A DNA stretch of 64,000 nt from Candidatus Kerfeldbacteria bacterium. Its GTDB lineage: Bacteria > Patescibacteriota > Patescibacteriia > UBA9570 > XYC2-FULL-38-9. Position 1 is the first letter of the stretch. Each line of letters starts with the position of its first letter. The DNA is taken from NCBI GenBank assembly GCA_016182555.1, contig JACPGJ010000008.1:386555-450554 (forward strand). Direction: 5' to 3'. The position numbers and the translations under genes are program-made. The notes beneath the pieces are model-generated. The model did no database searches, was not told the DNA's origin, and saw only the letters and a program-made list of their open reading frames with translations. Shown here one piece after another: positions 7,057 through 9,123 of this stretch.

Positions 7057-7344
7057 GACGATGTATGTAAGTATTGACAAATCGTCGCTCATCTACTAGG
7101 ATTTTTTCAACTTCGATTGGCTATATTGAAAATCGGAGTTTTTTGTTTCCAGGAGGAAGATTTCAATACGCACATGACAATAGAAAAAACCATGCGTTCA
7201 GCGAAAAGAATATTTTAAAAGTTGTATTCTCCTTGCTGAGCGCATGTTGCGCTCAAATCCTACCTATCGCCCGCACGGCGCGCTGATTTCCAGTGTGCCG
7301 TGGAAGAAAAAAAGAAAAGAAAGAAGGGAAAGAAGGGAAAGAAA

Positions 7345-7791
7345 ATGAAGAAACTTAGTTTGTTTGCGTTCGTTGTCGCCGCCGGCTTCATGACCGGCGT
7401 CTCGTCCTGCGACGTCGACAACGACAGCGACGGCTGGACCACTGAAGATGGCGACTGCGACGACAACAATCCGTCGATCCATCCGGGTGCCACCGAAGTG
7501 TGCGACGGGAAGGACGACGACTGCGATGGCCAGATCGATGAGGACGAAATAAATCCGGCCGTTGTCTATTACATAGATAGCGACCGCGATGGCAGTGGTG
7601 GAACCTCGTCCTTCTACTACTGCTCGGGAGCTTATCCCGAGTGCGCGGCTGTCAGTGATGATGCGTTGTGTGCATCGCTGCAGTCGGGTGACTGCGACGA
7701 TCGCAACGCCGCCGTGAACCCGGGCGCAACCGAGACCTGCAACAGCATCGATGACGACTGCGATGGTTCAATCGACGAGGCCTGCCTCTGA
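7345..7791 (+). CDS. GC-rich lipoprotein with three MopE-type putative metal-binding repeats (DCDDxNPxxxPGAxExCxxxDDDCDG)
   Basis: ATG at 7345 is preceded by a purine-rich RBS-like repeat gaaagaagggaaagaaggg. Signal with Cys (LFAFVVAAGFMTGVSSC). Three repeats of the Cys/Asp-rich motif. The gene and flanks (~7260-7930) are far more GC-rich than the surrounding genome. Confidence 0.6.
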   Translation: MKKLSLFAFVVAAGFMTGVSSCDVDNDSDGWTTEDGDCDDNNPSIHPGATEVCDGKDDDCDGQIDEDEINPAVVYYIDSDRDGSGGTSSFYYCSGAYPECAAVSDDALCASLQSGDCDDRNAAVNPGATETCNSIDDDCDGSIDEACL

Positions 7792-8196: not shown

Positions 8197-8569
8197 CGCG
8201 GGGTGGAGCAGTCTGGCAGCTCGCCTGGCTTAGTCTCTTGGGAGATCAAGTTCTCTCAAGCGTTCTTTACAGAATGAATCTGGGCGTCTTTGTTAGAAAT
8301 AACAGAGATGATTACCTGTCAAATTCGGGGAAGTCCCCATCAGCTTTAGGCTGACGGATAATCCCGAGCTAACCTTGCTTGATATTTCATTGGGCAAGAA
8401 ACGTGTAGAGACTAGATGGCAGGCACCGCACTTTGTCAGAAATGGCAAAACGGTGAAGGGATAGTCCAGACCACGAACTCAACTGCATTGACTACAGCAG
8501 ACTGAGGCGATGAAAATCGAAGTGGTACGCATAACCAGGAGGTCGCCGGTTCAAATCCGGCCCCCGCAA
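8197..8569 (+). tRNA. Initiator tRNA-fMet (CAU) interrupted by a group I intron in the anticodon loop (exons 8197-8230 and 8530-8569)
   Basis: Exons join to CGCGGGGTGGAGCAGTCTGGCAGCTCGCCTGGCT|CATAACCAGGAGGTCGCCGGTTCAAATCCGGCCCCCGCAA. This is near-identical to E. coli tRNA-fMet, including the C1:A72 mismatch and CAU anticodon. Confidence 0.75.
8231..8529 (+). ncRNA. Group I self-splicing intron (no ORF) inserted between U33 and C34 of tRNA-fMet
   Basis: 5' exon ends in U and the intron ends in G. R-like element GAGACTAGATGG and S-like element GGGATAGTCC give the P7 pairing GACTA/TAGTC. P4/P6-like GCTGACGGA resembles the Tetrahymena core. Confidence 0.65.
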
Positions 8570-8598
8570 CAAGAAAAATTCCTCGCCAGGAAAATACA

Positions 8599-9123
8599 TT
8601 GATACCAAAATATATGACGCTTACGACGCATGCAGCGACGGGAATGATTATCACACAATGGACGAATAATCCTATCCTCGGTTTTTTTGCTGCACTCATG
8701 AGTCATTATCTCCTCGATGCTATCCCGCATGCAGATGAATGGATTTATTGGCGGCACGTCCACAATTCACGCGATACCATTGCATTGATTGTTGCTGCTT
8801 GTGATGTTTTTGTGTTGAGCATTCTCTTGATTGCCGTTCTCAATACGCATTCGGGTGCCGAATCTTCACGCATTACCGCTGGGGTGATTGGTGGCATTCT
8901 CCCCGATATTCTCATTACACTGCATACCAAAAGCCGACGGAAATTCCGCAACGCTTATCATGGCATTATGCAAAAATTACAGCACGCCTACCACTTTTTT
9001 TTACAAAAACATTATACCTTTCACATGACATTCCATAATGTCATGCATGCACCCATTCGCTTTCGCACCGCTCTTTTCTATCAATCGCTCTACATCATTT
9101 GGTTTGTGTTCTATTTTATCTAA
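8599..9123 (+). CDS. Hypothetical polytopic membrane protein (possibly membrane-bound metal-dependent hydrolase-like)
   Basis: Several hydrophobic helices and a His-rich loop (LDAIPHADEWIYWRHVH). No confident family assignment. Confidence 0.35.
   Translation: MIPKYMTLTTHAATGMIITQWTNNPILGFFAALMSHYLLDAIPHADEWIYWRHVHNSRDTIALIVAACDVFVLSILLIAVLNTHSGAESSRITAGVIGGILPDILITLHTKSRRKFRNAYHGIMQKLQHAYHFFLQKHYTFHMTFHNVMHAPIRFRTALFYQSLYIIWFVFYFI

What the first reader, a model, noticed from the sequence alone, without database searches (positions are those of the whole stretch)
8197..8569. Initiator tRNA-fMet gene split by a group I intron inserted between U33 and C34
The spliced exons reconstruct a near-E. 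coli-identical tRNA-fMet with the C1:A72 mismatch, CAU anticodon and GGTTCAAATCC T-loop. The 299-nt intervening sequence carries group I core elements: R GAGACTAGATGG, S GGGATAGTCC, P4/P6-like GCTGACGGA, U at -1 and a terminal G. It has no ORF. Introns in bacterial initiator tRNA are rare and best known from cyanobacteria. This insertion site, 5' of the anticodon, appears atypical. Translation initiation here depends on self-splicing.
Basis: seen in the sequence. Interest (0 to 1): 0.6.

Follow-up and report, generated by a model that had tools for sequence, protein, structure and literature searches.

The report
Self-splicing intron in initiator tRNA gene
The initiator tRNA gene of this tiny uncultured (CPR/Patescibacteria) bacterium really is interrupted by a 299-base self-splicing group I intron, but it is an ordinary, ORF-less member of a long-known and widespread intron class sitting at that class's standard position.

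Summary
Window 8197-8230 plus 8530-8569 join into a 74-nt tRNA-fMet. The 299 nt between them (8231-8529) are a group I intron: Rfam RF00028 scores 54.2 bits. A model built only from 24 other tRNA-fMet introns scores the window at 102.5 bits.

I could place P1-P10 by hand. The guide sequence CUGGGC (8280-8285) pairs with GCU|UAG to form P1, with a U33-G8283 wobble. It pairs with the 3' exon CA to form P10. The core pairs are intact, and the helices P3, P6a, P7, P8 and P9 covary across 28 family members.

U33/C34 is the classical "fMet.2Ug" site (subgroup IC3). All 27 homologous introns I retrieved from many phyla, including Cyanobacteriota, sit there. Longer relatives carry orthologues of the Synechocystis homing endonuclease I-Ssp6803I.

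The host is a Candidatus Kerfeldbacteria-like CPR bacterium. Five relatives have the same syntenic tRNA-fMet without an intron, so the intron is sporadic. The window copy has no ORF and no detectable endonuclease remnant.

Verdict: real, most likely functional, a new member of a known kind, of low interest.

The parts
8197..8230 (+). tRNA-fMet exon 1 (positions 1-33: acceptor 5' strand, D arm, anticodon stem 5' strand CCUGG, then C32 and U33)
   Evidence: ARAGORN -i. 71/75 identity of the spliced gene to intronless orthologues.
8231..8529 (+). Group I intron, 299 nt, subgroup IC3-like, class fMet.2Ug, no ORF
   Evidence: Rfam RF00028 54.2 bits. Family model R1 102.5 bits, E 8e-24, the only hit in the window. 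MFE z-score -5.19.
8228..8233 (+). P1 5' strand: G31 C32 U33 | U+1 A+2 G+3. The 5' splice site lies between 8230 and 8231.
   Evidence: Pairs with 8285-8280 as GC, CG, UG, UG, AU, GC. The first four pairs are kept in 28/28 family members.
8234..8279 (+). L1 insert: a 9-bp hairpin 8237-8245/8252-8260 and a 6-bp hairpin 8261-8266/8271-8276
   Evidence: L1 length varies from 4 to 448 nt in the family and is where the endonuclease ORF starts in long members. No endonuclease remnant is detectable here.
8280..8285 (+). Internal guide sequence CUGGGC (P1 3' strand). G8282 and U8281 also form P10 with C34 and A35.
   Evidence: GGGC directly 5' of P2 is invariant in 28/28. P10 C34-G is kept in 28/28 and A35-U in 24/28.
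8286..8309 (+). P2 hairpin, 10 bp, GAAA tetraloop 8296-8299
   Evidence: The family P2 covaries.
8315..8321 (+). P3 5' strand CCUG(U)CA, followed by J3/4 AAU
   Evidence: Pairs with 8417-8423. 100% paired in the family, with compensatory changes at 5/5 positions.
8325..8367 (+). P4 (8325-8330/8362-8367) enclosing J4/5 AA, P5 (8333-8336/8356-8359) and the P5a extension (8340-8345/8349-8354)
   Evidence: P4 is 100% paired in the family. P5a is an insertion of about 12 nt relative to the family.
8368..8404 (+). P6 (8368-8369/8403-8404) and P6a (8374-8383/8389-8398). The third P6 pair is a U8370-C8402 mismatch.
   Evidence: The family has C-G at this pair in 27/28.
8408..8414 (+). P7 5' strand G(A)GACUA, with bulged A8409. 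G8410-C8466 is the inferred guanosine-binding pair.
   Evidence: Pairs with 8462-8467. 99% paired in the family, compensatory changes at 3/6 positions.
8417..8423 (+). P3 3' strand UG(G)CAGG
8424..8455 (+). P8 (8424-8428/8451-8455) plus an inner helix 8432-8438/8443-8449
   Evidence: P8 base is 99% paired in the family, compensatory changes at 4/5 positions.
8456..8467 (+). J8/7 (AAGGGA) and the P7 3' strand UAGUCC
8470..8526 (+). P9.0-like helix ACCAC/GUGGU (8470-8474/8522-8526). It encloses P9a (8478-8506) and the P9 hairpin 8508-8519 with GAAA loop 8512-8515.
8529..8529 (+). Terminal (omega) G. The 3' splice site lies between 8529 and 8530.
   Evidence: Read from the sequence. All 27 family introns end in G before CATAA.
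8530..8569 (+). tRNA-fMet exon 2 (positions 34-73: CAU anticodon, anticodon stem 3' strand CCAGG, variable loop, T arm, acceptor 3' strand, discriminator A). CCA is not encoded.
   Evidence: ARAGORN -i. The C27:G43 pair, compared with G27:C43 in relatives, is a compensatory change spanning the intron.

Best explanation
Window 8197-8569 is the functional initiator tRNA (tRNA-fMet) gene of a Candidatus Kerfeldbacteria-like CPR bacterium. [quoted passage not shown]

The proposed mechanism is inferred from the anatomy and from established group I chemistry:
1. The precursor is transcribed as one RNA.
2. The intron folds so that its guide sequence CUGGGC (8280-8285) pairs with G31-C32-U33|U-A-G. 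This forms P1 with the U33-G8283 wobble at the 5' splice site.
3. Free guanosine or GTP binds in P7 at the G8410-C8466 pair next to bulged A8409, and attacks after U33.
4. The terminal G8529 then takes the same pocket. C34-A35 of exon 2 pair with G8282-U8281 to form P10.
5. The 3'-OH of U33 attacks after G8529, which ligates the exons into a 74-nt tRNA.
6. That tRNA still needs end processing and CCA addition.

The intron was acquired by lateral transfer, or is a relic of a once-mobile intron that has lost its homing endonuclease gene.
For: Shown:
- The split gene and exact junctions.
- A group I covariance-model hit above the curated threshold.
- 102.5 bits, E 8e-24, with model R1, which was built from 24 other tRNA-fMet introns and excluded the window.
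- Whole-length homology to 16 tRNA-fMet introns from many phyla.
- Every helix placed at window coordinates, with standard pairs except one P6 mismatch.
- The unconstrained MFE fold recovers P2-P6, P8 and P9, with z = -5.19.
- Family helices are 94-100% paired, against 10-65% when the partner is slid by 1-2 nt. Compensatory changes occur at 5/5 (P3), 5/5 (P6a), 3/6 (P7), 4/5 (P8) and 4/4 (P9) positions.
- The guide sequence GGGC, the U-1:G wobble and omega-G are invariant in 28/28.
- The exons are under tRNA constraint: the spliced gene is 71/75 identical to intronless syntenic orthologues, and the 27:43 pair shows a compensatory change across the intron.
- The link to the published class: long family members at the same site encode orthologues of I-Ssp6803I (PDB 2OST, E 5e-66; Pfam PDDEXK_5). 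fMet.2Ug is listed as a classical IC3 type.
- Host assignment: RelA hits named Candidatus Kerfeldbacteria at 65-71% identity.

Inferred: self-splicing activity, the chemistry of the two steps, and the lateral origin.
Against: - There is no transcript or splicing data.
- The third P6 pair is a U-C mismatch where 27/28 relatives have C-G.
- P8 lacks the CCUAAC...GAGGG motif that most relatives carry, so a tertiary contact may differ.
- The Rfam score of 54.2 is only just above threshold. This is typical for the family, however: 11 of 16 members score 50-70 bits and 5 fall below threshold.
- No close relative of this particular intron was found. Identity over the core is at most about 83%, and at most about 75% to metagenome hits. 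Constraint on this lineage therefore cannot be measured directly.
- Only 64 kb of the genome is visible, so a second initiator tRNA gene cannot be excluded.
Confidence: 0.88

Rival explanations
1. The intron is a decayed, splicing-defective relic. This copy is a pseudogene and a second, intact initiator tRNA gene elsewhere in the genome does the work.
For: - One core mismatch in P6.
- The P8 receptor-like motif is absent.
- There is no endonuclease, so nothing maintains the intron by homing.
- Only 64 kb of a contig of at least 598 kb is visible.
Against: - All other core pairs and all family-invariant nucleotides are intact, and the family model scores 102.5 bits.
- The exons keep every initiator feature found in the relatives and show a compensatory 27:43 change.
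- The gene sits where five relatives keep an intronless tRNA-fMet, next to tRNA-Leu(caa).
- No other tRNA-Met is found in the window.
- My own knowledge, not tested here: CPR genomes usually carry single tRNA gene copies.
Confidence: 0.05
2. The intron is real and is removed in vivo, but it is not autonomously self-splicing. It needs a host protein or chaperone because of its weakened P6 and altered P8 periphery.
For: The P6 U-C mismatch and the non-consensus P8. [quoted passage not shown]
Against: - The two GAAA tetraloops (L2, L9) and the extended P5a and P6a helices are present, and the thermodynamic stability is strong, with z = -5.19.
- No maturase-like ORF lies in or next to the intron. 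The flanking ORFs are a MopE-type metal-binding protein and an unannotated 174-aa ORF.
- From my own knowledge, not retrievable here: small IC3 tRNA introns (Azoarcus, Anabaena, Synechocystis fMet) self-splice in vitro.
Confidence: 0.07
3. It is not an intron. The tRNA gene has been split by integration of some other mobile element, for example an island using the tRNA as its attachment site.
For: Two loci from the genome scan (L012, L032) do show a duplicated 5' part of tRNA-fMet 2.5-3.6 kb upstream of an intact gene. That is the signature of an integrated element.
Against: Here there is no duplication. The two halves join without overlap or gap into one tRNA. The insert is a group I ribozyme by two covariance models and by covariation.
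Confidence: 0.01

Closest known systems
Cyanobacterial tRNA-fMet group I intron. Described in Synechocystis PCC 6803, Scytonema and Dermocarpa by Biniszkiewicz, Cesnaviciene & Shub 1994 (EMBO J 13:4629). Class 'fMet.2Ug', subgroup IC3, in Williams 2020 (bioRxiv 10.1101/2020.01.27.920355).
   Same: - Same host gene and same insertion site (after U33, before C34), with U at -1 and omega-G.
- Same guide sequence, complementary to GCU|CAU.
- Same conserved core blocks. Identity to cyanobacterial members L017, L035 and L043 over 134 anchored core positions is 77-80%.
- Scores 102.5 bits against a model of this family.
   Different: - No homing endonuclease ORF. The Synechocystis intron is 655 nt with the 150-codon I-Ssp6803I (PMC1995217). 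Orthologous ORFs are present in L020, L060, L070, L077 and L080, with a frame-disrupted copy in L039.
- A 46-nt two-hairpin insert in L1 and a P5a extension of about 12 nt.
- A non-consensus P8 and one P6 mismatch.
- The host is a CPR (Kerfeldbacteria-like) bacterium rather than a cyanobacterium.
- The exon anticodon stem has U29:A41.
Azoarcus tRNA-Ile(CAU) and Agrobacterium tRNA-Arg(CCU) group I introns (Reinhold-Hurek & Shub 1992). Classes Ile2.5Ug and Arg.5Ug, subgroup IC3.
   Same: Small IC3 ribozymes in a bacterial tRNA anticodon loop. The core sequence motifs are very similar (UCAAAUUCGG..AA, GAGCCAAGC, GGUGUAGAGACUAGA.GG, AUAGUCCAG). The Azoarcus sequence is recalled from my memory and was not aligned with a tool.
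   Different: A different tRNA and a different site: after loop position 5, that is 3' of the anticodon. The guide sequence also differs.
[quoted passage not shown] 1990; class Leu.3Ug, IC3).
   Same: The same kind of element and the same subgroup. It is ORF-less, about 250 nt long, and located in the anticodon loop.
   Different: It is inserted between U34 and A35 of tRNA-Leu. It is thought to be ancient and vertically inherited in cyanobacteria and plastids, whereas the fMet intron is sporadic (PMC3610870; here).
Group I introns in CPR/Patescibacteria structural RNA genes.
   Same: The same host radiation. Lui et al. 2021 (PMC8172020) note that some tRNAs of circularised CPR genomes have group I introns that make them hard to detect. 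They also note that CPR 16S genes often carry large introns with LAGLIDADG endonucleases.
   Different: Those reports do not describe this particular gene or intron. The rRNA introns are larger and carry endonuclease genes.

Membership tests
Group I intron (Rfam RF00028) | Covariance-model match at or above the curated gathering score | tested here: met
   54.2 bits against a gathering score of 50, E 5.7e-11, at 8247-8477 +. Same hit in a local search at E 1.4e-12.
Group I intron (Rfam RF00028) | P1 helix between the 5' exon end and an internal guide sequence, with a U-G wobble at the 5' splice site | tested here: met
   G31-C8285, C32-G8284, U33-G8283, U8231-G8282, A8232-U8281, G8233-C8280. 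The first four pairs are kept in 28/28 relatives.
Group I intron (Rfam RF00028) | Terminal (omega) G, and P10 pairing of the 3' exon with the guide sequence | tested here: met
   G8529. C34-G8282 and A35-U8281.
Group I intron (Rfam RF00028) | Conserved core P3-P8, with the P3/P7 pseudoknot and a G-binding G-C pair next to a bulged A in P7 | tested here: met
   All helices are placed at window coordinates. The family shows covariation against slid-partner controls. P7 pairs are 27-28 of 28.
Group I intron (Rfam RF00028) | Guanosine-dependent self-splicing | not testable with these tools
   Needs in-vitro splicing or RNA-seq.
tRNA-fMet intron class fMet.2Ug (Synechocystis type, IC3) | Inserted between anticodon-loop nucleotides 2 and 3 (U33/C34) of a CAU initiator tRNA | tested here: met
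   The same junction GGCT|...G|CATAA occurs in 27 homologous genes.
tRNA-fMet intron class fMet.2Ug (Synechocystis type, IC3) | Sequence and structure homology to other members of the class | tested here: met
   Model R1, built from 24 members with the window excluded, scores 102.5 bits, E 8e-24. MAFFT alignment A1. 69-83% identity over 134 core positions.
tRNA-fMet intron class fMet.2Ug (Synechocystis type, IC3) | The class is the one carrying I-Ssp6803I-type (PD-(D/E)XK) homing endonucleases. This is a link to the published intron, not a requirement for membership. | tested here: not met
   The window intron has no ORF and no remnant. Relatives at the same site do carry one: the L060 ORF matches PDB 2OST at E 5e-66. 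ORF-less members are common, 17 of the 27 relatives.
tRNA-fMet intron class fMet.2Ug (Synechocystis type, IC3) | Subgroup IC3 assignment | not tested
   Taken from Williams 2020, who cites the GISSD database for the class. The resemblance to the Azoarcus core is from memory only.
Bacterial initiator tRNA (tRNA-fMet) | Mismatch at 1:72 (C1 opposite A72), A11:U24, CAU anticodon | tested here: met
   Spliced sequence and cloverleaf.
Bacterial initiator tRNA (tRNA-fMet) | Three consecutive G:C pairs at 29:41, 30:40 and 31:39 | tested here: not met
   The stem is CCUGG/CCAGG, which gives U29:A41, G30:C40, G31:C39. The same U29:A41 is present in all five intronless relatives, so it is a lineage trait and not damage. 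Natural exceptions are known, but as A29:U41 (PMC5389676).

The most novel reading that the evidence does not exclude
In this reduced CPR genome the intron-containing gene may be the only initiator tRNA gene. All translation initiation would then pass through a guanosine-dependent ribozyme step. The cell might exploit this, for example by coupling supply of initiator tRNA to the guanine-nucleotide pool or to stress, rather than merely tolerating a selfish element. A further possibility is that the intron reached the CPR cell from a host bacterium. No close relative of this intron was found in either scan.
Probability: 0.08. Interest if true: 0.45.

Novelty: new member of a known kind. Interest (0 to 1): 0.18.

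Why it matters
The practical points are annotation and natural history.

- Default tRNA finders and the Rfam tRNA model miss this gene. An automatic annotation of this small genome would therefore report no initiator tRNA.
- 5 of 16 homologous introns fall below Rfam's group I threshold, so the class is under-annotated.
- The case adds a CPR/Patescibacteria host to a classical intron class. Its sporadic distribution fits the known picture of lateral spread followed by loss of the endonuclease: present in the window lineage, absent from five syntenic relatives.
- It does not open a new question about splicing or translation.

Tried and rejected
(1) An alternative extended P1. GGCU|UAGUCUC can pair with GAGAUCAAGUU (about 8243-8253). 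That would put U33 opposite an A. I rejected it because the family-invariant GGGC directly 5' of P2 gives the canonical U-G wobble and also explains P10.

(2) The idea that the 46-nt L1 insert is a remnant of an I-Ssp6803I-type endonuclease gene. By eye, CUUGGGAG..AUC resembles the ...AWELI codons. Local alignment against the L1 regions of 15 relatives gave z of at most 2.3; for the best-scoring case by z, 13 of 300 shuffles did as well. tblastn gave only a 7-residue hit, E 1.4, and that hit lies in the ribozyme core. Not supported.

(3) A search for the same split gene in related CPR metagenome contigs, using the Kerfeldbacteria-type exon 1 followed by T. It found 0 hits.

(4) A search for close relatives of this intron with a P7/P3 pattern. 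It returned at least 120 loci, none more than about 75% identical to the window intron.

(5) Promoter and terminator scans were at chance level. By eye, TTGCAT occurs upstream of the tRNA both here and in L105. I did not treat this as evidence.

(6) The original papers (Biniszkiewicz 1994, Paquin 1997, Zhao 2007) are not held. The insertion site of the classical intron was therefore taken from Williams 2020 and from the cyanobacterial loci themselves.

(7) My genome-scan pattern required a non-C as the first intron base. It therefore missed members that begin with C, which are common in the metagenome hits. This may explain why Synechocystis PCC 6803 itself was not returned.

(8) The window's own NCBI contig (598,550 bp) could not be fetched. 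Only short Logan contigs of SRR12113422 came back.

Full report
**The observation**

The sequence at 8197-8569 reads CGCGGGGTGGAGCAGTCTGGCAGCTCGCCTGGCT, then 299 nt beginning TAGTCT and ending GGTACG, then CATAACCAGGAGGTCGCCGGTTCAAATCCGGCCCCCGCAA. ARAGORN in default mode and the Rfam tRNA model find only tRNA-Leu(caa) and tRNA-Gln(ctg) in the window. ARAGORN with intron search calls tRNA-Met(cat) with a 299-nt intron between tggct and cataa.

The spliced 74-mer has these properties:
- It has C1 opposite A72, A11:U24, a CAU anticodon and the GGTTCAAATCC T-loop.
- No other placement of the splice sites restores a 7-nt CUCAUAA loop with U before the intron and G at its end.

Rfam RF00028 (Intron_gpI) hits 8247-8477 on the + strand at 54.2 bits (gathering score 50, E 5.7e-11).

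**What the intron belongs to**

I scanned one genome per species for tRNA-fMet exon 1 followed by a non-C base. This gave 102 loci. Scripts showed that 27 of them are tRNA-fMet genes split at exactly the same junction, GGCT|T...G|CATAA. Their inserts are 210-1268 nt long.

The hosts include:
- Cyanobacteriota (L017, L035, L043)
- Blastocatellia / Acidobacteriota
- Omnitrophota
- Planctomycetota
- Desulfatirhabdium
- Parabeggiatoa
- Competibacteraceae
- Heliobacteriaceae and Clostridia
- Elusimicrobia

Two other loci (L012, L032) are duplicated tRNA halves, the signature of an integrated element, and not introns.

MAFFT alignment A1 shows the window intron is homologous to these along the whole core. 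The conserved blocks are:
- TCAAATTCGGGGAA
- AATCCCGAGCCAAGC
- GAAGGTGTAGAGACT..GG.AGGCACC
- GGTGAAG.GA.AGTCCAGACCAC
- GGCAGTGAAAACTGTAGTGGTAAG

Covariance model R1 was built from 24 of these introns without the window. It finds one hit in the 64-kb window, 8310-8474, at 102.5 bits, E about 8e-24.

The window's Rfam score is typical for the family. Of 16 members, 11 score 50-70 bits and 5 miss the threshold.

**The link to the literature**

The family members of about 640-670 nt carry ORFs that start a few bases into the intron. The L060 ORF matches PDB 2OST, the Synechocystis I-Ssp6803I endonuclease, at E 5e-66, and Pfam PDDEXK_5 at E 2e-50. The Synechocystis intron is tabulated as 655 nt with a 150-codon ORF (PMC1995217).

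Williams 2020 (bioRxiv 10.1101/2020.01.27.920355) lists four classical bacterial tRNA intron types: Leu.3Ug, Arg.5Ug, fMet.2Ug and Ile2.5Ug. All four are subgroup IC3. In that paper's numbering, position 2 is after the second anticodon-loop nucleotide, which is U33/C34.

The window intron therefore sits at the standard site of its class. Metagenome loci add further tRNA-Met(cat) genes split at this site, many with introns that begin with C and which my genome pattern excluded. They also show related introns in Leu, Ser, Pro, Val and Arg tRNAs.

**Anatomy and likely mechanism**

In all 28 introns a GGGC lies directly 5' of the P2 hairpin. In the window this is CUGGGC, 8280-8285.

- P1: G31-C8285, C32-G8284, U33-G8283 (the wobble at the splice site), U8231-G8282, A8232-U8281, G8233-C8280.
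- P10: the same G8282 and U8281 can pair with C34 and A35 of exon 2.
- The family consensus guide AUGGGC is complementary to the ligated GCU|CAU.

The other helices, at window coordinates:

| Element | Coordinates | Note |
|---|---|---|
| P2 | 8286-8309 | GAAA loop |
| P3 | 8315-8321 / 8417-8423 | |
| P4 | 8325-8330 / 8362-8367 | |
| P5/P5a | 8333-8359 | |
| P6/P6a | 8368-8404 | |
| P7 | 8408-8414 / 8462-8467 | bulged A8409; G8410-C8466 |
| P8 | 8424-8455 | |
| P9.0-like | 8470-8474 / 8522-8526 | encloses P9a and a GAAA-capped P9 (8508-8519) |
| omega-G | 8529 | |

An unconstrained fold recovers P2-P6, P8 and P9 on its own, with MFE -103.4 kcal/mol and z = -5.19.

Across the 28 sequences these helices are 94-100% paired. 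When the 3' partner is slid by 1-2 nt, pairing drops to 10-65%. Compensatory double changes occur at 5/5 (P3), 5/5 (P6a), 3/6 (P7), 4/5 (P8) and 4/4 (P9) positions.

The window deviates in four ways:
- The third P6 pair is U8370-C8402, where 27/28 relatives have C-G.
- P8 is non-consensus.
- P5a carries an insertion of about 12 nt.
- L1 carries a 46-nt insert forming two hairpins.

From this I infer ordinary two-step guanosine-initiated self-splicing. The chemistry is established knowledge. Activity of this particular RNA has not been shown.

**Host and evolutionary context**

The RelA/SpoT protein at 832-2364 is identical to a protein on an NCBI MAG contig of 598,550 bp. Its next-best hits, at 65-71% identity, are named Candidatus Kerfeldbacteria or Patescibacteria. 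Fragments of the same genome occur in Logan assemblies of SRR12113422.

Five relatives keep the neighbourhood RelA-ParB-ParA ... tRNA-Leu(caa) ... tRNA-Met(cat):
- L105 (GCA_964344485.1)
- L106, L107 and L108 (three contigs carrying the same RelA protein P0028, counted as one relative)
- L230 (GCA_001818355.1)
- L231

In all of them the tRNA-fMet has no intron. It is 66-71/75 identical to the spliced window gene. The window has C27:G43 where the relatives have G27:C43. This is a compensatory change that spans the intron, and it argues that the spliced product is under selection.

The intron is thus sporadic within the lineage, as reported for cyanobacteria (PMC3610870). No endonuclease ORF or remnant is detectable in it. 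Neither flanking ORF is a nuclease: 7300-7791 is a MopE-type metal-binding protein, and 8599-9123 matched no NCBIfam or Pfam family.

Group I introns in tRNAs of CPR genomes have already been remarked on (PMC8172020). Williams 2020 found high frequencies in metagenomic assemblies of unnamed phyla.

**Verdict**

It is nevertheless a routine, ORF-less member of the classical fMet.2Ug IC3 intron class, at that class's standard site, in a new host lineage.

The claim that initiation depends on splicing is plausible but cannot be checked from 64 kb. Interest is low. The main value is for annotation, because the initiator tRNA is invisible to default tools. There is also one side observation: the Kerfeldbacteria-type initiator tRNAs carry U29:A41 instead of the first of the three conserved G:C pairs.

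Noticed in passing
window 8223-8227 / 8535-8539 (anticodon stem). Also L105:15313-15387, L106:15450-15524, L107:14341-14415, L230:13446-13520, L231:15393-15467.: The initiator tRNA of the window and of five Kerfeldbacteria-like relatives has U29:A41 in place of the first of the three conserved G:C pairs of the anticodon stem. Published natural exceptions (mycoplasmas, alpha-proteobacteria) are A29:U41, which keeps a purine:pyrimidine pair (PMC5389676). U29:A41 reverses that orientation.
   Followed up: partly
L060:999-1655, L077:3242-3899, L039:3961-4614, L080:2546-3184, L070:5465-6102, L020:1910-2578: The I-Ssp6803I-type endonuclease ORFs start 6-20 nt into the intron, in L1, and read on through P2, P3, P4 and P5 into P6 of the ribozyme. 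For example...KFGEP... is encoded by UCAAAUUCGGGGAAC. Protein and ribozyme core therefore share the same nucleotides. This is why tblastn with the endonuclease 'hits' residues 139-172 in many ORF-less introns.
   Followed up: partly
L067:3229-3688, L085:2243-2599, L045:3110-3415, L053:119-456: These ORF-less family members retain clear fragments of the endonuclease gene upstream of the ribozyme core (tblastn E 1e-15 to 1e-38). They are snapshots of endonuclease decay within the intron family.
   Followed up: partly
L024:5264-6198, L036:2460-3411, L015:2593-3860: Three tRNA-fMet introns carry a different endonuclease, a LAGLIDADG ORF of 225-237 aa (Pfam LAGLIDADG_2, E 2e-15 for the L024 ORF, the only one scanned). 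It is inserted right after the P7 5' strand. L015 also holds a decayed PD-(D/E)XK gene in L1.
   Followed up: partly
L090, L021, L041, L072, L096 (intron coordinates): Five of 16 clear tRNA-fMet group I introns do not reach the Rfam RF00028 gathering score. Default ARAGORN and the Rfam tRNA model miss the split genes. The class is therefore systematically under-annotated.
   Followed up: yes
L012:1022-3492, L032:308-3907: A truncated 5' part of tRNA-fMet lies 2.5-3.6 kb upstream of an intact tRNA-fMet gene. This looks like the attachment-site duplication left by an element integrated into the tRNA gene, not an intron.
   Followed up: no
metagenome loci L109-L228 (for example L109, L110, L117; list): The same P7/P3 core motif occurs in introns that ARAGORN places in the anticodon loops of tRNA-Leu(caa/taa/cag), Ser(cga/tga), Pro, Val, Arg and elongator-type tRNA-Met/Ile2(cat) genes. 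Some initiator-like tRNAs there have unusually short D arms (L124, L129, L224).
   Followed up: no
window 8570-8572, and the relatives' tRNA 3' ends: The tRNA-fMet genes of the window and its relatives do not encode the 3' CCA. The discriminator A is followed by CAA/CAAC. CCA must therefore be added after transcription.
   Followed up: no
L008:5596-5670 (Shigella flexneri SFBU1023): An initiator-tRNA-like gene reads GAU instead of CAU at the anticodon and lacks one base in the T-loop (GGTTCAATCC). It is probably a pseudogene or a sequencing error.
   Followed up: no
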